This document shows positions 47,076-64,000 of a stretch of 64,000 nt of DNA, in pieces. Numbering within the stretch: position 1 is the stretch's first letter; each line of letters begins with the position of its first letter. The DNA is from Rhizophagus irregularis (Eukaryota). A program made the translations under genes and the position numbers. Location: positions 5,456,001-5,520,000 of the forward strand of contig NC_089431.1 in the NCBI RefSeq assembly GCF_026210795.1, given 5' to 3'. A model generated the notes under the pieces. That model did not search any database and was not told where the DNA came from. It saw only the letters and a list, made by a program, of their open reading frames with translations.

Positions 47076-47600
47076 TTAATATTGGTTTAGTGTAAAAGCA
47101 TTAATACAACGAGTTACGCCAAAGAAAAAACCTTTTTGATGGCACACAATATCGATAATATCATCGTTTTCCATCTCAAGCTATTTTAATGTTAAAAAAA
47201 AGATACATGTGTAATAAATATAAAATTCTTTTAAAGTATTTTAAAGTATTTTGATATTATTTTAGACTTACAGAATCTGGAGTATCATAATCCTTAATTT
47301 GGTGTCCATCAAACAAAAATAACATAAATTTAATATCCAAGCCATTTCTATCACAATGGACTTGCTTAAGTTTATTAAGAGGTTTCGTCTTTTTGACTTT
47401 GTAAACTGTCTCACTCTTAGACTATTGAAATTTACAAATAATGTTAATAAAAGAACTAAATTCACTTTAATTAATATATATATACTTATATACTTAACAT
47501 AATCTTGAACTTTAAGATTAACGAACGAATCAATTGATTCATTTGAATCAACTGCTTCTGTCTTGATAAATTGTAACAATAACTGATCGTTAGAAGCCAT
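47076..47600 (-). CDS. SUMO-like (Rad60-SLD/ubiquitin-fold) protein lacking diglycine, 118 aa, 3 exons
   Basis: Exons 47600-47499, 47421-47272, 47180-47076 give ..VNLKVQDY/SKSETVYKVKKTKPLNKLKQVHCDRNGLDIKFMLFLFDGHQIKDYDTPDS/LEMENDDIIDIVCHQKGFF.., which aligns with Smt3/SUMO. Confidence 0.85.
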
Positions 47601-49543
47601 TTTTCGTTCGTTTATTAGAAAGAAAAAAATATTTTTATGAAAGCAATAATGGTAATGATACAATGAATGAATAAAATTACAATGAATATACTGTACCTAC
47701 ACTGGATAAACTATTAAAAGATTTATTCATGTTGTGTCTCTATAATTATGCACGTTTATGTTACAGATCCCATGAATGATAATTCCATAAATTTTTTTCG
47801 GATTTTTGTTTACTTTTACAATATACAGAATTAGAACAATAGTTTATGGTCGCAAACGCAGTAAAAATTATGTATTGTGGCGATGTATCTTCTCATATAC
47901 TGTATTCGGTAAATTGCACTGTGACATTATTAAGTTTTTTAGAAAACTTTATTTGAACTCACGGAATGACTGAAAGAAAGACTTTTTATATTTTATAAAA
48001 TTAACGAATTCCAATTTGTTACGCCAAAATAAACCGGAAATAGAATAATAATGAATCAATTGACTGTATGAAATGAAAAGAACAAGAAACTTTTGAGCCA
48101 ATATGTTATTGAGTGCTAACAATTCATCGAATTTTCACTCAATGATGGTAACAGTATACAAGAAATTACTGTATGTGGTTTGGTATCTATAACGGCAACA
48201 CAAGAACGAAATAGGAAAATTTCATAGAAATGATCAACATAAACGCCAACGTAACATTGTACCCTCGAAGTAAAAATAAACAAACACATCTATTCTTATT
48301 TTTTTATTTATTATATACTACAAAATTTCATTTATATGCATCAAACAACACGAACAATATGATCACAAACTGGCACATGTTACACACTTAGTATTGTATT
48401 CTGTGCAATCAATAACATCAACGTAACTGGGGTTTATTCCCAAATTTTATCTTTTTATCAGTACTATCTCTACAATCATCGCTTTTACTACAAATATTTA
48501 CAGTGAATAATTGGCAAAAATTTGCCGGAAGGTCACACTTCATTGATCGAGATAAGATTAGAAATGTGATTTTTTTAAAAAAAATATATTACATTTAAAA
48601 AAAAAAAAATTATAAAAATCAGTGTTGAGCGACTTGAGCATTTAAAAAAAACTAGATGTTCATTTTTCAATATCACATGATTTCGCCCTTAATTTTCCGA
48701 ATTTTTAGAATAGACAAGGGTCAGAATTAGTAGTGGATTAGATATAGGTCTTTTCTTGATAATTAAAATTTTCTGCTCCCCACATTTTTATTTAGGTTGA
48801 GGAGAAACTGACCACAATCTTTACTACAAATAAACAAAATGATATATATATTTAATTGGAAGGTTATAAAACTTATATCAGCAGTGTTATCATAAATAAA
48901 ATCACATTTTATCGAAAGTTCATCTTGCACATGTAATTTCTTAGTATAAATGCTGTTCCATTTACAAAGTTCATAGAAGAGTCAATAAGCTAATTTTTAT
49001 ACTATATTCTATTAATACCTTAAGTTATGAAGTTTTAAAAAAAATTTTGTTAGAGATAAACTAATATCTTACAAATAATAATTATAAATATTTTAAATAA
49101 GTTAAAATAAGAAGAAATGCTATAATGTTAAATAAATTTAAAATTGTTATGAATTTTATAAGAAAAATTCATTTTAGTAATAATCGATCTCATTTACATT
49201 TTATAGGACCTCATTAACATTGTTCCAAAAGAATAGTATCACAATTTGGAATATAATATCATAATTTATATATTACTCGACAGTTTTATTTGGTTATTAT
49301 ATAATTATACGCAAAGTAAGAAACTGTTATTATTTTGATAACCAAACTTAAATAAAAAAAATTATAGATTCATTAATATTATTATCACTTAGGAAGAAAA
49401 AAATTCTGATTCTTCGCATGGTTTGCAAAATACATCTCCTTATGTTTGGCTGTGGTTTGAACGTGGAAGCGGAACACTTATTAACACACTGCATTTTTAC
49501 GGGATATGTAGAAAATAAAAACCATTATTATAAATTTTGTCAT

Positions 49544-50031
49544 TTATTTGATATTAATATTATTGCATTTTAAAAAAAAACCTATTCTCTCGGGCACATA
49601 ATCGATAATATCGTCGTCTTCCATTTCGAGCTGTAAAAAAAAATATATTTGCAAACAAATACTGTATAATAAATATAAGTATTTTAGACTTACAAAATCA
49701 GGAGTGTCATCATAATGAATCCTGCATCCATCAAATAGAAATCTTAGTGTGGCAGGGCTAAGTCCATTTATTTCAGAATGGGATTCCATAAGTTTTTTAA
49801 GAGGTTTTGCCCTTTCAACTATGTAAGTCGTCTCTTTACGTTTAATAGAATCATTTTTCTATTAACATTGCAAATGGTATTAGCAAAAAAATAACAAATA
49901 ACCTGATTTTTAGGACAAATGAACTTAACATAATCATAATCATAGTAGATCATAATACTAAAAAATGAATTAGCTGAACCAGTCGGTTCTTCTGTCTTGA
50001 TAAATTGGGACAATAATTGATCAGAATTCGT
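49544..50031 (-). pseudogene. SUMO-like paralogue 2; frame intact but the start codon is ACG
   Basis: Exons 50031-49930, 49858-49694, 49630-49544. KPLKKLMESHSEINGLSPATLRFLFDGCRIHYDDTPDF/LEMEDDDIIDYVPERIGFF. May still be translated from ACG, a downstream ATG or an upstream exon. Confidence 0.7.
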
Positions 50032-54824: not shown

Positions 54825-56171
54825 TTACGTTGTAAAGTCAATAATTTCTACGGAATTATTATTAACATTATCGTATTTTGAAATGTTCTTTGTAAAAGAA
54901 TTAAGTAATCGAGATGTATAAATAGCTTGTAAATGAGGATTTGATTCACTAGATAATGACTTTCGATGTTCTTCCGCTTCCTTGAATTGGTTTTCAATTT
55001 CATAATGCTCTTGTTTCTTTTCAATTTTCATTAGAGTTTTAAATCCTGATTCATTCTTTGTGTATGAAGCATAAAATATCAAAATTTCTTTTTTTAATTC
55101 AGCTATTTTCGGTCTTTTGTCTGGACTTGAATCCCAACATTTTTCCATTAATTCAACGTAACACTTTGGTGCTTCCGTCTTATTTATTACGGGTCTATCA
55201 CCTTTACATATGTTTATCGCTAAAAATTCGTCGTGTGGACAATTGGCAAAAGGTTGTCTTCCAGTTGCTATAAAATACATAATCATACCAGCACTATATA
55301 TATCTGACGCTTGGGTATAAGGGTTTCCTTTTAGCACGTTAGGGTCTAAATAAGGCATAACTCCAAAAATTTTTGTTTCATCGTTATTACTTGCTTCTCT
55401 ACACAATCCCATATCTGAAATATGTGGAAAATTACCATTTTTAATTAAAATATTTCCCGTATGAAAATCATGATGAACAAATCCTTTTTGATGAAGTTCA
55501 TCAAGAGCATTAAAAATATTAAATAATGATTTTAATTTATTTTTCCAACTTAAGTTAATAAAATTTTTATTTATCCAATCATTAAGACTTCCGCCTTCCA
55601 CAAATTCGAAAACCATAATATATTCTTTTGTTACTGGATTTTGTGATATTCCATATGCTTTAAGAATATGATGAGAATTCATTATTGTATGTATTTTAAT
55701 CTGGTAATACCGTAATAGAATTTATATTATTAGACTTTTTTTAAAAAAATAAAAATACTAATATTTGAAATTTCATACCTCGCTTAGAAATTCACTTGTA
55801 ATATTTTGTGAGTCAATTAAACATTTTAAAGCGACTTTTTTATTAGCTCTTTCTTTTCTTGTCGTCCATTCCATTTTATTCACATCATAATTTAATGGAC
55901 CATCCTTCCATATCGCTGAACATACTGTAGAAAAACCACCTTTACCTATTAATTCAACATCATTAAATTGATTATATGGTATCCATTCAAATAATAGATC
56001 ATTATAACAATTGATTTTTGAATTTATTTCTTGAATAAATTCATCAATTTTTTTATCTCCGCTGATTTTAGTATAATTTTTTAATCGATTTATTTGACAG
56101 GGTTTACACCATTTATATTTTATATTAAAAAAACCTTTATATGATTCACCACATTTTTCACATTTATCCAT
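54825..56171 (-). CDS. TKL-type Ser/Thr/Tyr protein kinase, 422 aa, 2 exons
   Basis: Exons 56171-55779 and 55700-54825 join in frame. CxxC..WCxxC, GKGGFSTV, VALK, HHDFHTGN, DMG and SDIYS motifs. Confidence 0.9.
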
Positions 56172-58030
56172 TTCTTTATTGTTTGTTAATATCTCGCTTT
56201 GGGATGTATATCTTGTTATTTAAAAGTTAAGAAGGAAAGAATAATTTTTTTTTTTTCTCAAACAATTTAAGTCCCTTCGTTATAAACATTTAAATAGTGT
56301 TTAGCTTGATTCGGTAAATTGTACTAATTAAAAAATGCAAAAACTTTATCTTTTTCGGAAAATTGTGCTACGTTTTTGAAGATCTGCTTCATACACAAAG
56401 AACCATTCTTTAGTTGTACAAAATTTTTCGAGAATAGTTATGATCGGTTTTGCCGTCTTTCGATTTTGTGTAAAGGCAAAAATTTTATAATTACTGTATA
56501 ATTAAATTTTTCATAAATCACGTCAAATGGTTTTTACGTATTACACAGTGCGTATTGACAATTCGATGTCCTACGGTTCGTAGTTAGAAATTTTAAGCAA
56601 AATAATCGGGCCCATTTCCGCATAACGAAGTTTTAATTATCTTTATATGTTTATCAAAGTTATTGAAAAATTTTTTTCTCAGAGTAATTATATCAAACTC
56701 TCTTTACATATTTGATAACTTTTCATAGTATGTATGGAACGACTGGAACGTTCCAATTTCATTGGCCGCAGAATCATACGAACCTCGGGTATCACAAAAG
56801 ACAGGTCTTCAAATGGCATCATTAACAGAAATAAAGATGATGAATAAAGTTGCATTAATAAAGCCACCTTTACGACGAACTTACAAGTACGAAATCGATT
56901 TAGGTGAGAGAAAACATTTGGTGAATCCCAGTTATCCGTAAGAATTGAAAGGTTACACTAATAAATAATAATTTGGCTTCTGTATAACTACCAATGGGGT
57001 AGCCTTGTTAACGAAAATAATATTAGAAGAATAATAATTTGTCAAATGAATATTTATTTTTTAAAATTATTATTAAATAAAAAACAATATATTTGTTGAA
57101 TCTGCGAATTTTGCCGAATCATTTAATATGTATTTCCGAATTATACAATATTAAACCAACCGTTATTGTAATAACAATTCATTTTTTTTTCTTTTTTTTT
57201 GAAATTACTAATACACGTAGATCATTTTGAGCTTAACGTATAGTCGTATAGTGCATAATTTCCATCTTTACTATATTAATACTTGAAGATTTTGTTTGTT
57301 TGAAAGTTGTGAACGGTAATACGTGGTACAAGAAATTAGAGCGCTTAGCTCAAATGCGCCCTTTAAACTTTTAAAGAACCCCCTAAGCTTTATTTTTCAT
57401 TTTATTTACTAAATAAATGTATGAAATTTTTTTTTTTTTGGGTTGATCATTTTAATATTTATGATTATATAATACATATTTGATATTCTGACAGTTTTTC
57501 TCTTTATAAAGGGTTCGTCTCATTGCATTTTTTTTAAATTTTTGGCCAATCAAAATTTAAACACTATTAATTTTATTAAATGGAGTTAACTGAAGACCAT
57601 ACGTGGATTAATAATTATTATTTATTTATTATATTTTCACATTAGAAATAAATGTACACTGGTAAAAAAATTCGAAATAAAAAATTTAAATCTTTATTTT
57701 GTGAATAATTTTTAAACGTAAATAAGTATTAAAACAACATTTAGATTATTTTATTTTTTATTTTGAAAAAAAAAAGCTCGTAGATAAATAAAAACCAAAT
57801 TAATAAAGGATTCAAAAACGAATTAAAATTAAATATATTTTTTTAAAATATTATTATTTGTAACTATTTTTTTTTTTTTAAAAAAAAAAGAAAGAAAATT
57901 AATAAACGAATGTTCATTTTTAGAAGTATTTAAAAAAAGAGTGAAATAAAATCCTGAAATAAAAAAACCAAAGATGAATTTGACTTTATTTTGAAAAAAT
58001 AAAGTTAGAGAACTCAAAATAAATGTATTT

Positions 58031-58135
58031 TCACATTATTGAGCATGAATTAGTCGGTTGTGCTGGATTTTCTGTAACTTCAGAAGTAACAACGACGGTT
58101 GGATTAGCAACGATATTGATGACGGTTTGATTCAT
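58031..58135 (-). CDS. 34-aa CAAX-terminated peptide; candidate lipopeptide (a-factor-like) pheromone precursor
   Basis: MNQTVINIVANPTVVVTSEVTENPAQPTNSCSIM*. A-rich context before the ATG, GC content higher than the flanks, upstream TATA box. Confidence 0.6.
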   Translation of the reverse strand: MNQTVINIVANPTVVVTSEVTENPAQPTNSCSIM

Positions 58136-58300
58136 TTTTTTTATGTTTATTGGAAAGTGTTAAATTTGTGTTGTGTTGCGTTGTTTTTTTTTTATTTTTT
58201 GATCGCAGATCAAAAGAAAAAAGAATATTTAATAATTTTTTTTTTGTTCTCTAACTTCTTTGCAAGTATTTGATGAGAAAGAAAGGTGGAAACAAAGGTG

Positions 58301-58308
58301 TATTTATA
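58301..58308 (-). promoter_or_regulatory. TATA box (TATAAATA) upstream of the CAAX peptide ORF
   Basis: ccctataaatacacc on the minus strand, followed by a pyrimidine-rich tract, ~165 bp upstream of the ATG. Confidence 0.5.
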
Positions 58309-59291
58309 GGGTAAACTGCGTATAATGCGCGCGTAACTAGATTGTTTTTTGATATTGTTGTATTGTTAGCTTTCTTTGAATTTATAATAATGTATTATGT
58401 GATTGTCTGAAACATAGAATTCATGTTCCACAATATCCATATGTGACATGAACATGCATGCATGTGCGAGGCACATGGAAATTTTTGGAAATTCGGATTT
58501 AAAGGCGCAAAATAAATATTTTGAAAGTATTCAAAGTATTCGATATATAAAACAATAATTCTTAACAAGGAACATAAATAAAACTATTTTTAAGAAATAC
58601 TGCGTTAATACGTAATTAAATTTTATTACTTCAAACGCCTTTATTATAATATGTTAATGCATCCATATTATATGCAATTAAAATGTTAGTCATGTTAATA
58701 AGAAATTTTTCGGATTTTTTGTATCTATTTTTATACATAATAAATGATTTTGAAATACTTTTAGGATTATTACATTATTTAAATTAAACAGACAATTTCG
58801 ATTACTCATGAGAAGTAAAACAAAAAAGAATTCTAGAAATCAATGGAATAAATAACCTCAAACTTGGCGCAATTATTCATCGATCTTGGATAAAAAAAAA
58901 ATTTTACTATACCAAAAGAAAAAATCTTTTTTCTTAAAAAGTAACTAAAGTAAAAAAAATTCTTACCTCACGTGCATTTCCAATGTCGATCATATTCTAT
59001 ATTTGATCAACAAAAGGTTGGTAGTATAATTTAAAATTTAAAACTAAAAGGAAAAACATACGGATGTTTCTTTTTTATCTGGATATGAATATAACCATAT
59101 TTATTTTATTGTTTTTTTTTGATACGTAATTAATTCCTAAACGTAAGCGGTTTGAAATTTGTTTTAATAGTAATAATGAACCGTAGCTAATTTTTCCCGT
59201 TTCTGAATCGGAATTTCTGACACGTCGATCATTTGTCGATCAAATTTTGTTAATTATAGTTTATAAATAGGCATAATTAAACTACCTTTTC

Positions 59292-59405
59292 AAAACATTG
59301 ATTGTTTTGTTGGATATTTTTTATTATCCAAAACATTGATTGTTTGCTGGATCGTTTTATTATCCTGAATATTGATTGTTTGCTGGATCGTTTTATTATT
59401 ATCCT
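59292..59405 (+). repeat. Three tandem ~36-bp units
   Basis: Three copies of aaacattgattgtttgctggatcgttttattatcc. Confidence 0.8.
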
Positions 59406-59444
59406 AAATAAAAATCTATTAATTCATGTATAACAAAGACATAT

Positions 59445-59896
59445 GGTCAGGTCATGACTGTGACCTTCTGACCGATCATTTGACGATTTTGGCCGAACGT
59501 TTAAAATTGTAAGTTACAATAATATCTGATCATTACAGTTGTTTTCATAATGTACTGGACATCTAGTCATTTTTAACTCTTTGCCGAAACACTCGGTATA
59601 TTCGGTAAAACTCGGTAAAGCTCACAATAGGAAAAAAATATATCATTACTCATTAGATTCGGTCATTTCGGTGTATTGTTTCGAGTATAATAATATTATT
59701 TTTTGTTTTATCCTGAGCTAAACCGAACATTATCAAATAATTCTTGGCAAGGAGTAAAAAATGGCCAGGTTTCTAAAAAAAAAATGAGTTTTTAATTCTT
59801 TTTGGTTAATCTGGTCTCGGTCAAACGGTCGGTCAAATGGTTGGTCAAAACGATCGGTCGGTCAAAGATTCTTGATTCGGTTATGACCGACCGATG
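59445..59896. mobile_element. Degenerate MITE-like foldback
   Basis: ggtcaggtcatgac pairs with gttatgaccgacc, with mirrored tgaccg/cggtca motifs. Inner imperfect pair actctttgcc / ggcaaggagt. Confidence 0.45.
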
Positions 59897-60742
59897 AGGC
59901 GTAGAAATTAAGGCGCAGTAAGGAATGAGGCGCAATTAATAAATTTTCGGATCCAATCATTTTACAGAATAATCACGTGAAAGCCGAGATTCTCGGCAAC
60001 AAAATTTTCAATTGTCTCGTTTATTTTGGATTTTGCTGTAAATGGTAAGTCGGATAATGACATTTCGGTGAAATAGGGTATACTAGGAAAACGGAAACCG
60101 TTTAAGTCCTTCGCGTTGCATAACTCGCAAGTGCATGTTACGATTGTTACGTGATCTACGTGTCATTTGGCATATTTCAGGGGTCAAATAACTAGTCTTA
60201 CATAAAATTGTGATACATATTCAAAAAAGGAAATAAATTGTCGATTGTGACAGGGACAAAAACGGGGTTAAACCATTCGCTAACGCTTCGGGCAATAGAT
60301 TTTCATGTCGGTAAAATGGAAGCCAGCAAATAAAATGGCGTTGGTTAATTTCATTTTTGTAGAATGGCTGTCTGTAAATTGTACTGTAACCCAAGTCAAT
60401 AACAATAACTTAAATTATTCTAAATTTTGGATAATAACATTATATAAAATTGAAACATGATATAGACAAGCAGAAATTAATAAAATTTATTCAATTACAA
60501 ACTGATTTATTTATAGAAAACATGTTTACAAATACTCTATCATCAGTGTTGAACAATAATTTTAAAATAAAAATAGGTAAAAAAATATATATTTGAATAA
60601 ACTATAAAGTTACATTATAACTTTAGTTTATAATAAACGATTTTTTCAATATAAAATTTTTCAATCATTCGTAATTTTAGTCCGTAGATCAACAATGATT
60701 TCAATTAATAAAGATAAAATTGTAATTAAAATTTAGCATAAC

Positions 60743-63700
60743 TTACTCTGCTGTAAAGTCAATATATTCTGCCGTAATATTATTAATATTATCATACATT
60801 GGAAAGTCTTTTGTAATGGAGTTAAGTAATCGAGACGTATAAATAGCTTGTGGATGAGTATTTGATTGAATAACTTCAATTGATAAAGGGTTTGCTTTTC
60901 TATATTCTTCTGCTTCTTCCAATTGATTTCTAATTTCTTGCGGTTGTTTGGAATCATTAAGTAACTTCATTGTTTCAAATATTTCATCTATATTTGGTCT
61001 ATGATCTGGATTTGCATCCCAACATCTCTTCATTAAATCAATATAACATTTTGGTGCTTCTGGCTCACTTATTTCAGGTCTAACTCCTCCGCATATGCTT
61101 ATTGCTAAATATTGATCGTGTGCACGATTGTAAAAAGGTTGTTTCCCAGTGGCTATAAAATACATTAACATACCAAGACTATATATATCTGATGCTTGAG
61201 TATATTTCCCTACTTTTAATACTACTTCAGGAGCTACATAAGGCAAAACTCCAAAAACTTTTTTTTCATCTTTTTCATCTATATCATAATTATCATCAAC
61301 TTTCCCACATAATCCCATATCTGCAATACAGGGCCAATATTCATTCTTAATTAATATATTTCCAGTATGAAAATCACGGTGAACCATATTTTTTTGATGA
61401 ATTTCTTTAAGACCTCTAACAATATTCCATAATGAAAGTAATTTATATGACCAATTAAATTTATCATAATTTTTATTTATCCACTTACTTAAATCTCCAC
61501 CTTCTACATATTCAAGAACCATAATATAATCTTTTGAATCTGGATTTTGAGATATTCCATATATACTTAGAATATAAATAGAAGTTTTCTTTGAATGTAC
61601 TTTAGCCTACAAAAATTTAAATTGTTTGTTAAAAAAATATATAGTTTATATATATATATACATATACTGTATATATGTTTATTTATTTAATTTGTTACTA
61701 GAATAAATTCTTACCTCACGTAAAAATTGTTCAGTGATATTTTGTGAGTTACGCATACATTTCAAGGCAACTTTTTTATTTGCTCCAGGTTTTCTTATCC
61801 ACTTCTTTATATTATCATCATAATATAATGGACCATCCTTCCATATTGCTGAATAAACTGTAGCAAAGCCTCCTTTGCCTATTTCTTTAATATCATTAAA
61901 CTGAGTATATGGTATCCATTCAAATGTATCGTTAAAATAACCATTACTCAATTGTGTCTTTTTAATAAAATCATCAATTGTTTCATTTTTACTTGTCCAG
62001 TTTGTAAAATTTTTTTTTAGATGGTGAATTTTACATGGATTATACCAACTATGTATTACATCTATATATTTTTCATCACATTTTTTACAATTTTCAGCTT
62101 GAATTACAATATAGTCTTTTGTATTTGGATCTTGAGATATTCCATATAAAGTATTGTACTATTAAACAAAAATTAAGTCAATAAATTAAAAGTGCTGGCT
62201 TAAATTTCAGTTATAGAAATTTTTCTGACTCATACCTCATTTGAAAATTCATTATTTATTTCTTGTGAATTGTGTAGATATTTTAAAATAACTTTTGTGC
62301 TTGTATTTCTTTTTTTTGTCCATTCTTTTATATTATCATAATAATATAATGGACCATCCTTCCATACTGCGGAATATACTTTAGCGTGATTATCAACCAT
62401 TTCTGTGATGTCATTAAATTGATCATATGGTACCCATTCAAATACTATACCGTTACAATAATCGGTTTTTAATTGTATCATTTGAATAAATTTATTGATA
62501 CTTTCATTCCCACTCGTCCAGTTTGTAAAATTTCTCTTTAAATAATTTATTTGACATGATTTAACCCATTTATGAGACATATCTGTATATTTTTTATCAC
62601 ATTTTTCACAATATTTACTGTTGATTTCGAGAACCACAATGTAGTCTTTCGTATGCGGATTTTGAGATATTCCATATATTTTAAGAATATCATCTCGTCG
62701 TTTAATTGAATTCGCATTAACCTATTAAAGCAAACTGAATTGTTATTAAAAAGATCTTTAAATTTAATGAATAGAAAAATCTTATACCTTAAGTGAGAAT
62801 TTATCGGCTTGTGAATTACAAAAAAGTTTTAGAGTGACGTTTTTATTTTTGTCAAATTGCTTCTTTGTATATTCAGTTCTATCACTATCATAGTATAATG
62901 ACCCATACTTCCATATTGCTGAATATATTGTTATATATTCATATTCACATATTTCTTTAATATTATCAAACTGGTTGTATGGTATCCATTCAAATACTAT
63001 ATCATCAAAAGAATCAATTTTTAATTGCATTTCTTGAATACGCTGATCAATTATTTTACTTCCACTCGTCCAGTTTGTGAAATTACTTTTTAAATAATTT
63101 ATTTGGCATGGTTTGCACCATTTATGAAATATATCCGTATATTTTTTATCACATTTTTCACAATATTCACTATTGACTTCGAGAACCATAATGTAATCTT
63201 TCGTATGCGGATTTTGAGATATTCCATATATTTTAAGAATATCATCTCGTCGTTTAATTGAATACGCATTAACCTATTAAAGTAAACTGAATTGTTATTA
63301 AAATGATCTTTAAATTTAATGAATAGAGAAATTTTATACCTTATCTAAGAATTTATCGGTTTGTGGATTACGAAAAAGTTTTAAAGTGACGTTTTTATCT
63401 TTGTTAAATTGCTTCCTTGTATATTCAGTTTCATTACCATCATAACATAATGTCCCATACTCCCATATTGCTGAATATATCGTGATATACCCATATTCAT
63501 ATATTTCTTTAATATTATCAAACTGGTTGTACGGTATCCACTCAAATACTATGTCATCAAAAGAATCAATTTTTAATTGCATTTCTTGAATACGCTGATC
63601 AATTATTTTACTTCCACTCGTCCAGTTTGTGAAATTACTTTTTAAATAATTTAATTGGCATGGTTTACACCATTTATAAGATGTATCTGCATATTTTCCA

Positions 63701-64000
63701 TCACATTTTGGACAATAACTATCTTCAAGAACCATGACGTAATCTTTCGTATGCGGATTTTGAGATATTCCATATATTTTACGAATATCATCTCGTCGTT
63801 TAATTGAATATGCATTAACCTAGTATTGAAACAAACCAAAAAAATTATTATTAAAAAGTTCTTTAAATTTAATGAATAAAGAAATTTTATACCTTGGATA
63901 GTTTCATATAGTAGCCTATATATTGTGGATTACATAAGTGTTTCAAAGCGATATTTTTATTCTGGTTTTCTTGATTATTTATTTTTTCATCATAACATAA
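60743..64000 (-). CDS. TKL-type kinase with tandemly repeated N-lobe modules (5' end lies outside the window)
   Basis: Exons >64000-63893, 63819-63340, 63273-62788, 62721-62236, 62158-61715, 61606-60743. All introns are phase 0 and the frame is open. The final unit has GKGGFATV, VALK, HRDFHTGN, DMG and APE. Confidence 0.88.

What the first reader, a model, noticed from the sequence alone, without database searches (positions are those of the whole stretch)
58031..58135. Hidden 34-aa CAAX peptide: candidate lipopeptide mating-pheromone precursor
Seen: the minus-strand ORF MNQTVINIVANPTVVVTSEVTENPAQPTNSCSIM-stop is below the ORF-track cutoff and sits alone in a ~4.5-kb intergenic region. It is a GC-richer island with an A-rich start context and a TATA box. 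Known: a-factor-type and basidiomycete pheromone precursors are ~30-60 aa, lack a signal peptide, have a Thr/Ser-rich pro-region and end in CAAX (X=M favours farnesylation). Yeast a-factor is cut after Asn (DN|Y), exported by Ste6 and sensed by Ste3. Inference: cleavage at EN could release farnesyl-PAQPTNSC-OMe. A pheromone in a putative AM fungus, a group with no observed sexual cycle, would be notable. It could instead be another prenylated signalling peptide.
Basis: partly seen in the sequence, partly recalled or inferred. Interest (0 to 1): 0.9.

Follow-up and report, generated by a model that had tools for sequence, protein, structure and literature searches.

The report
Candidate lipopeptide pheromones in mycorrhizal fungi
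This tiny gene belongs to a conserved, mostly unannotated or mis-annotated family in arbuscular mycorrhizal fungi whose products end in a lipid-attachment tag, and it likely encodes the farnesylated pheromone-type signal that was looked for and not found in these fungi, which have never been seen to have sex.

Summary
The 34-codon ORF (58031-58135, minus strand) is a real gene. Searches returned 62 relatives; the named ones are Rhizophagus irregularis, R. clarus and Acaulospora colombiana. 45 of 63 proteins end in a CaaX box, 42 in CSIM. Sixteen carry the unit twice in tandem, like rhodotorucine precursors. In 10 metagenome loci plus the window, variation is mostly synonymous (dN/dS about 0.16, biased low). 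TATAAATA precedes 9 of 11 and the leaders lack ATG. ACAAT, which resembles the fission-yeast HMG M-box, is the top-enriched 5-mer in 7 largely unalignable promoters. Three probable-RNA runs hold an unspliced contig across the ORF; one ends in an adapter-like tail 30 nt below the TATA box. Published work found STE3 and STE6 but no peptide pheromone in Rhizophagus, and showed that a-factor ending in CSIM supports yeast mating. Best reading: precursor of a farnesylated, exported Ste3 ligand (0.65). The proposed cleavage after Asn is unsupported, because Asn occurs there in only 3 of 60 units. Prenylation, export, receptor binding and a role in mating are all untested, and self-signalling remains a serious rival.

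The parts
58031..58135 (-). 34-aa precursor ORF, ATG to TGA
   Evidence: first ATG of the inferred transcript; no other letters inside the ORF in 4 of 4 runs laid
58034..58045 (-). CaaX box CSIM (Cys31), predicted farnesylation site
   Evidence: Cys in 58 of 60 and SIM in 51 of 60 distinct family units; CSIM works on yeast a-factor (PMC9231725)
58043..58072 (-). Glu22-Cys31, the 10-residue segment between the near-invariant Glu and the Cys: most likely mature peptide or its C-terminal part; holds the family's variable 1-5 residue patch (AQ here)
   Evidence: Glu-to-Cys span is 10 in 50 of 60 units; the cleavage site itself is inferred
58073..58102 (-). conserved pro-region: Pro, a short V/I-rich stretch, then S-E-V-T; too short for a signal peptide or membrane helix
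   Evidence: profile and hydropathy (best 19-residue Kyte-Doolittle mean 0.88); shortened in the repeats of P0050 and P0057
58136..58271 (-). likely 5' leader, A-rich and free of ATG; likely start near 58271
   Evidence: the contig of run X4 ends at 58271 in a 22-nt loose end that I recall as a template-switch adapter; 1 ATG in 1085 nt of family leaders against 18.4 expected
58301..58308 (-). TATA box TATAAATA
   Evidence: same 8-mer 77-173 nt above the start in 9 of 11 loci; the other 2 have under 125 nt of upstream DNA; 41 copies in the 128 kb of both window strands
58309..58558 (-). promoter zone with six ACAAT motifs (HMG-box-like) and one TGAAACA (Ste12-like; reversed, 58408-58414)
57870..58030 (-). 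likely 3' UTR; end not mapped
   Evidence: contigs of X7, X11 and X4 run unspliced from the ORF past 57900, but the DNA-like run X15 breaks at the same homopolymer

Best explanation
The ORF is one copy of a conserved multi-copy family of 30-35-residue CaaX peptides in arbuscular mycorrhizal fungi, and it likely encodes the precursor of an a-factor-type lipopeptide pheromone. SHOWN: a conserved gene with a TATA box, ATG-free leader, CSIM-stop and tandem two-unit versions. INFERRED, by analogy with Dikarya: (1) the peptide is made in the cytosol with no signal peptide; (2) Cys31 is farnesylated, SIM is removed by Rce1 and the Cys is methylated; (3) the pro-region is cut in or just after the V/I-rich stretch and S-E-V-T, leaving about 10-13 residues from an acidic residue to farnesyl-Cys methyl ester, with the 1-5 residues between the two prolines setting specificity; (4) the Ste6 ABC transporter exports it; (5) the single Rhizophagus Ste3 receptor senses it; (6) HMG-box factors at ACAAT sites, perhaps with Ste12, drive transcription. 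Two-unit precursors would yield two peptides, as in rhodotorucine A.
For: Family: 63 proteins including the query, with bacterial-type repeat protein P0005 dropped as unrelated. 45 of 63 end in C[STV][IV][MV], 42 in CSIM. Named members: R. irregularis (several loci), R. clarus (2), A. colombiana (1). Tandem units: 15 of 63 by pattern, plus P0050 by eye. They are contiguous in DNA in L010 and in a one-exon model in P0057. Selection: over 22 codons in 11 loci pS is 0.42, pN 0.09 and dN/dS 0.16; variable columns by codon position are 9/4/16. A stop follows CSIM directly in 8 of 10 metagenome loci. Promoter: in the 250 nt above the TATA box in 7 loci, ACAAT occurs 32 times against about 10-11 expected (0 of 1000 shuffles reach it) and is the top-ranked 5-mer; TGAAACA occurs in 5 of 7 against 0.65 expected. 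The promoters are unalignable except L002/L003. Without the window, where I first noticed the motif, and without L003, the count is 23 against 6.9. Six other window genes have 0-3 in a comparable stretch, against 3-6 in the family. ACAAT occurs upstream of the Ste11 box in the M-factor gene promoters of fission yeast (PMC1693924 Table 3; underlining lost, so the M-box assignment is my reading), and TGAAACA is the Ste12 site (PMC551538). Transcript: one unspliced contig bridges the ORF and its stop in each of X7, X11 and X4 (three studies); X4 ends 30 nt below the TATA box in an adapter-like tail (adapter identity recalled; RNA status is the tool's guess). Chemistry: a-factor ending in CSIM gave mating comparable to native CVIA and was cleaved by Rce1 (PMC9231725). 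Machinery: Rhizophagus has one STE3 and an STE6, and no peptide pheromone gene was found (PMC3834313). Short, multi-copy, CaaX and conserved mature region are the criteria that found a validated yeast a-factor (bioRxiv 2021.09.28.462209).
Against: No biochemical or genetic test exists. No Pfam family reaches its cut-off, pheromone families included (0 of 11 family proteins; 0 of 24), so there is no detectable homology to known pheromones. No STE3 or mating-type gene was seen among the window ORFs examined; neighbours are kinases, SUMO-like, BTB-TLD and bromodomain genes (only 6 window ORFs were scanned). The C-terminus PTNxCSIM is nearly the same from Rhizophagus to Acaulospora, which is more conservation than mate-discriminating pheromones usually keep (yeast homology fades by the S. 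cerevisiae-K. lactis distance). Only one STE3 copy is reported, so a two-partner system is not evident. Loci were found by peptide patterns, which biases dN low. 3 of 10 metagenome loci look decayed (L005 lost its start, L008 its stop, L010 its terminal Cys), and 18 of 63 proteins lack a terminal CaaX. Promoter motifs are weak predictors of pheromone genes, and TGAAACA also occurs within 700 nt above 2 of 6 control genes. A co-inoculation study saw no upregulated pheromone genes (PMC7490403), though it had none annotated to look at.
Confidence: 0.65

Rival explanations
1. The same lipopeptide and pathway, but used mainly as a self or kin signal (hyphal homing and anastomosis, density sensing, sporulation) and not for recognising a mating partner. 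This overlaps the best explanation in mechanism and differs in purpose.
For: Strong C-terminal conservation across two orders. One STE3 copy. No mating-locus gene seen nearby. Contigs hold the gene in probable-RNA runs from three studies. Autocrine pheromone signalling is reported in asexual Fusarium oxysporum (PMC13097639; title and abstract start only).
Against: Promoters are enriched for motifs like those of mating genes. R. irregularis entries show two different cores: AQ in P0001-P0003 and P0008, and DGN in the DAOM 197198 entries P0009, P0025, P0034 and P0044. That could be partner specificity.
Confidence: 0.2
2. A prenylated peptide aimed at the plant host or at other microbes (a lipopeptide symbiosis signal), or one acting through a receptor other than Ste3.
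For: All named members are AM fungi, and these fungi make other peptide signals (KEPs; PMC6339444).
Against: No signal peptide or Kex2 pair in 5 of 5 proteins checked. The structure and promoter match fungal a-type pheromone genes, and an otherwise orphan Ste3/Ste6 pair exists.
Confidence: 0.07
3. An intracellular membrane-tethered microprotein: farnesylated but neither cut nor exported, binding a partner through its conserved V/I beta-strand and EVTE motif.
For: The pro-region is unusually well conserved for a disposable leader.
Against: In two-unit forms the internal CSIM is kept intact, which makes sense if units are cut apart. The V/I stretch is shortened in the P0050 and P0057 repeats while xTExP...PTNQC is kept. 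High, changing copy number is typical of secreted pheromones.
Confidence: 0.07
4. A chance ORF, or the first exon of a longer protein, as some database gene models have it.
For: A strict CaaX ORF is expected in about 1 of 8 such windows. P0009, P0025, P0034, P0041, P0044 and P0056 are annotated with longer tails.
Against: 62 relatives, synonymous-biased variation, a conserved TATA box and an ATG-free leader. The tails are unrelated to one another (P0025/P0044 aside). The Met-stop junction reads ATGTAA/ATGTGA, offering gene finders a false GT donor. Contigs cross the stop unspliced (no joints).
Confidence: 0.01

Closest known systems
a-factor / M-factor type pheromone precursors (S. cerevisiae MFA1/2, S. 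pombe mfm1-3)
   Same: Under 40 aa, no signal peptide, terminal CaaX, several copies per genome, conserved C-terminal region; ACAAT in the promoter as in mfm1-3; CSIM functional on a-factor.
   Different: No sequence homology detected. No conserved Asn 5-20 residues before the Cys as an Axl1-type site (the invariant Asn is only 2 before it). The mature region is polar and Pro-rich, and the family lies outside Dikarya.
Agaricomycete B-locus pheromone precursors
   Same: CaaX with an acidic couplet upstream: EK in 40 of 60 units, resembling the 'ER' couplet placed 10-15 residues before CaaX (PMC5473757). Often missed by annotation pipelines.
   Different: The couplet is about 9 residues before the Cys and not always acid-basic (EN here). 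No linked STE3 cluster was seen in the window. Much less sequence diversity.
Rhodotorucine A precursors and Hypocreales h-type precursors (HPP1)
   Same: Tandem pheromone units separated by CaaX-like spacers; HPP1 also has a polar Ser/Thr after the Cys (PMC3068285).
   Different: Only one or two units were seen (search limited to 16-132 residues); no Kex2 pairs; no homology.
Glomeromycotina KEX2-processed repeat proteins (alpha-factor-like)
   Same: Repeat-containing peptide precursors in R. irregularis proposed as signals (PMC6339444).
   Different: Those have a signal peptide and Kex2/Ste13 sites and no CaaX; this family is the opposite.

Membership tests
a-type (prenylated) fungal pheromone precursor | Short ORF (<100 aa) ending in CaaX-stop | tested here: met
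   34 aa, CSIM-stop; 45 of 63 relatives end in CaaX
a-type (prenylated) fungal pheromone precursor | CaaX is a farnesylation, proteolysis and methylation substrate | not testable with these tools
   CSIM works on yeast a-factor (PMC9231725); not tested on this peptide
a-type (prenylated) fungal pheromone precursor | No signal peptide or Kex2 sites | tested here: met
   hydropathy and dibasic scan of 5 proteins; no dedicated signal-peptide predictor was run
a-type (prenylated) fungal pheromone precursor | Conserved mature region and several copies per genome | tested here: met
   PTNxC near-invariant; three or more DAOM 197198 loci, and 2219_t and 2220_t as consecutive models on contigs of equal length
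Saccharomycotina a-factor subtype | Conserved Asn cleavage site 5-20 residues before the Cys | tested here: not met
   Asn follows the Glu in 3 of 60 units; criterion
Agaricomycete B pheromone subtype | Acid-basic couplet 10-15 residues before CaaX | tested here: inconclusive
   EK/ER in 42 of 60 units, span to Cys 10; EN in this copy
Agaricomycete B pheromone subtype | Linked to STE3 in a P/R locus | tested here: inconclusive
   no STE3 among window ORFs examined; no whole genome held; other copies not placed
a-type (prenylated) fungal pheromone precursor | Sequence match to a curated pheromone family | tested here: not met
   no Pfam hit at cut-off; expected for pheromones of distant clades, so this lowers homology, not mode of action
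a-type (prenylated) fungal pheromone precursor | Exported by Ste6 and activates Ste3 | not testable with these tools
   STE3 and STE6 reported in Rhizophagus (PMC3834313); no Ste3 sequence was on hand
mating pheromone | Mating-type-specific expression or alleles; needed for cell fusion | not testable with these tools
   two cores among R. irregularis entries are a lead only
alpha-type / KEP precursor | Signal peptide and Kex2-bordered repeats | tested here: not met

The most novel reading that the evidence does not exclude
This family is the missing Ste3 ligand of Glomeromycotina, the first peptide pheromone outside Dikarya. The variable patch between the two prolines (AQ versus DGN within R. 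irregularis) defines partner types, so AM fungi keep a working pheromone-receptor mate-recognition system, separate from the HD locus, that could be triggered with a synthetic lipopeptide.
Probability: 0.4. Interest if true: 0.95.

Novelty: new variant of a known kind. Interest (0 to 1): 0.86.

Why it matters
Whether AM fungi have sex is a long-standing open question. The receptor and exporter for a farnesylated pheromone were reported in 2013 and the ligand was not found (PMC3834313). This family supplies a concrete 10-13-residue candidate that can be synthesised and tested on Ste3 in yeast and on living hyphae. If right, lipopeptide-Ste3 signalling predates Dikarya, and there is a handle for inducing fusion or mating in a major crop symbiont that cannot be bred. 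Even under the self-signalling rival it would be a new kind of defined signal between AM hyphae. It also shows an annotation blind spot: most named entries are mis-spliced or extended models.

Tried and rejected
No whole genome was held, so there was no genome-wide CaaX scan and no own check of STE3, STE6, RAM1, STE14, STE24, RCE1 or AXL1. The exact sequence is not in the protein collection. ESM Atlas gave no usable hit for P0001 or P0013 (not evidence either way). The PDB search gave 2 chance-level hits. Pfam gave nothing at cut-off. No second copy in the window. Sequencing runs: no RNA holder is listed on record; 20 of 24 rows hold half or more of the words, in 10 studies. 4 of the 24 runs were laid, on 761 bases only. 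Runs X7, X11 and X4 have no cover over 58290-58660 where X15 continues; missing cover is not counted as evidence. The ends at 58245 and near 57870 coincide with homopolymers where the DNA-like run also breaks, so they map nothing. Contig depth was not used to rank expression. P0005 was rejected as an unrelated repeat protein. P0003's two units were not counted as proof of tandem structure, because it is a two-exon model with CSII at the join and may fuse two adjacent genes. The ACAAAG (Ste11/Prf1-type) motif is not enriched (1 against 1.1 expected). No specific synteny: L004 also sits beside a kinase of the same expanded family, which is uninformative. The repeat scan of the gap showed mostly low-complexity matches. 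Earlier findings: 3 look-ups, none returned. No fold or complex prediction was run: the peptide is too short and no receptor sequence was available.

Full report
Observation. The ORF is as described: 58031-58135 on the minus strand, 34 residues ending CSIM-stop, in a 4.5-kb gap between two kinase genes. It has TATAAATA at 58308-58301 and GC of 0.38 against 0.16-0.26 in the flanks. Alone this is weak: 1 of 257 short ATG ORFs in the window fits a strict CaaX pattern, and 0.125 are expected per simulated window. The organism is not given and no genome is held. The closest named relatives are from Rhizophagus irregularis and share the TNSC variant, so I infer that species or a close one.

It is a gene family. 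An unfiltered search of 1.84 billion representatives gave 6 hits: the 5 short ones share the C-terminus, and P0005 was dropped as an unrelated repeat protein. Three word-indexed searches and a cluster look-up extended this to 63 proteins including the query, with some redundancy. Named ones are R. irregularis, R. clarus and Acaulospora colombiana; the rest are unnamed metagenome or assembly products. The pattern is M-N-P/Q, a few variable residues, K-P, four or five V/I residues, S-E-V-T-E-x-P, a variable patch of 1-5 residues, then P-T-N-x-C-S-I-M-stop. Among 60 distinct units from 54 of the 63 proteins, Asn is invariant, Thr and Glu occur in 57-59, Cys in 58 and SIM in 51; the Glu-to-Cys span is 10 in 50. 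45 of 63 proteins end in a CaaX box. Of the other 18, six are database models with tails after the unit, one is partial, and the rest look decayed or read through. The Met-stop junction spells ATGTAA or ATGTGA, a false GT donor; I infer that this explains the mis-annotations.

DNA-level evidence. Ten metagenome loci of 23-30% GC were fetched. Eight have a stop directly after CSIM; L008 has lost the stop, L005 the start, and L010 runs into a second unit whose Cys is Tyr. Over 22 codons in 11 sequences pS is 0.42, pN 0.09 and dN/dS 0.16; this is biased low because the loci were found by peptide patterns. Independent of that bias, TATAAATA sits 77-173 nt above the start in 9 of 11 loci (the other two are truncated), and the leaders hold 1 ATG in 1085 nt against 18.4 expected.

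Transcript. Four of 24 listed runs were laid on 57900-58660. In X7, X11 and X4 (three studies, RNA by the tool's guess) one contig of 391-431 nt bridges the ORF and its stop with no joint and no other letters. The X4 contig ends at 58271 in a 22-nt loose end which, read on the minus strand, I recall as a cDNA template-switch adapter. That position is 30 nt below the TATA box, at a CTCATCAA-like motif shared by several loci. These are contigs, not reads, so transcription, strand and start are likely but not proven, and the 3' end is unmapped.

Tandem forms. Fifteen proteins by pattern, plus P0050, carry the unit twice with an internal CaaX-like spacer. This is contiguous DNA in L010 and a one-exon model in A. 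colombiana; P0003 may be two fused genes. Tandem units separated by CaaX-like spacers are described for rhodotorucine A and HPP1 (PMC3068285, passages). In the P0050 and P0057 repeats the V/I stretch shrinks while xTExP...PTNQC stays, which points to that segment as the product.

Promoter. I noticed ACAAT repeats above the window's TATA box and then tested them. In 250 nt above the TATA box in the 7 loci with enough DNA, ACAAT occurs 32 times against 11.1 in dinucleotide shuffles (0 of 1000 reach it) and ranks first of all 5-mers; TGAAACA occurs in 5 of 7 against 0.65. The promoters do not align, except L002 with L003. Without the window and L003 the count is 23 against 6.9, and six other window genes have 0-3. 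ACAAT appears upstream of the Ste11 box in the fission-yeast M-factor promoters (PMC1693924, passages with Table 3), and TGAAACA is the Ste12 site (PMC551538, passages). The controls are few, ACAAAG is not enriched, and such motifs predict pheromone genes only weakly (bioRxiv 2021.09.28.462209, passages).

Mechanism. Most likely: cytosolic synthesis, farnesylation of Cys31, Rce1 trimming, methylation, N-terminal cutting, Ste6 export and sensing by Ste3. All of these steps are inferred. a-factor ending in CSIM supported mating like the native motif and was cut by Rce1 (PMC9231725, passages). Rhizophagus has one STE3 and an STE6, with no peptide pheromone gene found (PMC3834313, passages and section 12). 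The STE3 family was the one GPCR family generally conserved across fungi (bioRxiv 546531, passages). A product starting at the acidic couplet, as predicted for Agaricomycete pheromones (PMC5473757, passages), or three residues earlier fits better.

Against, and rivals. There is no homology to curated pheromone families, no STE3 or mating gene among the window ORFs examined, and one reported receptor. The C-terminus is conserved across two orders, more than mate-discriminating peptides usually are. A self or kin signal for hyphal fusion through the same pathway is therefore the main rival (0.2). Host-directed peptide and intracellular microprotein follow (0.07 each). The two cores among R. irregularis entries (AQ; DGN in all four DAOM 197198 entries that surfaced) could be partner types or just paralogues; I could not test this. 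PMC7490403 (passages) reports no upregulated pheromone genes in co-inoculation; PMC6339444 (passages) describes a different, alpha-like class.

Novelty. Six searches of the held library found no paper describing this family or a prenylated peptide pheromone in AM fungi; the exact-motif and locus-tag search returned 0. The library lacks most subscription journals, I read passages only, and I saw no supplements, where such peptides could be listed. I file it as a new variant of a known kind: it works like an a-type precursor by anatomy, fails the Asn-site test for the yeast subtype, and its membership as a mating pheromone is untested. Interest 0.86, because it makes an old question directly testable.

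Noticed in passing
P0009, P0025, P0034, P0041, P0044, P0056 (database gene models): Public Rhizophagus models of this family run on past the CaaX into mostly unrelated tails, probably by a false intron opened at the GT in ATG-TAA/TGA, which hides the CaaX from searches of annotated proteomes.
   Followed up: partly
P0001-P0003, P0008 versus P0009, P0025, P0034, P0044: Two different cores (AQ and DGN) within R. irregularis entries; DGN in all four DAOM 197198 entries that surfaced. Could be isolate- or mating-type-specific.
   Followed up: no
L001, L002, L003, L005, L006, L007, L010, 50-150 nt after the stop: A shared 3' UTR motif around GGCCTG(G/A), often preceded by TTTAATT, visible and absent from the first 200 nt after the window copy; possible RNA element.
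   Followed up: no
L005 start, L008 stop, L010 second unit; P0040, P0043, P0058, P0061-P0063: Decayed copies (lost start, stop or Cys), suggesting birth-and-death turnover of the family.
   Followed up: partly
window 60743-63929 (-): Kinase gene preceded by several tandem, intron-separated repeats of the Cys-rich N-terminal module, typical of the expanded Rhizophagus kinase family; a shorter relative lies at 54825-56219.
   Followed up: no
window 59300-60350: GC-richer non-coding stretch with short GACC(G)-type repeats and a 36-nt tandem duplication at 59319-59390; likely promoter or transposon remnant.
   Followed up: no
window 47268-49858 (-): Two nearby SUMO-like ORF fragments (Rad60-SLD hit for 49544-49858; none for 47268-47696).
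   Followed up: partly
L009 782-1330 (-): Fragments that look like a PIF1-type helicase (Helitron-like; label recalled, not scanned) next to a family gene.
   Followed up: no
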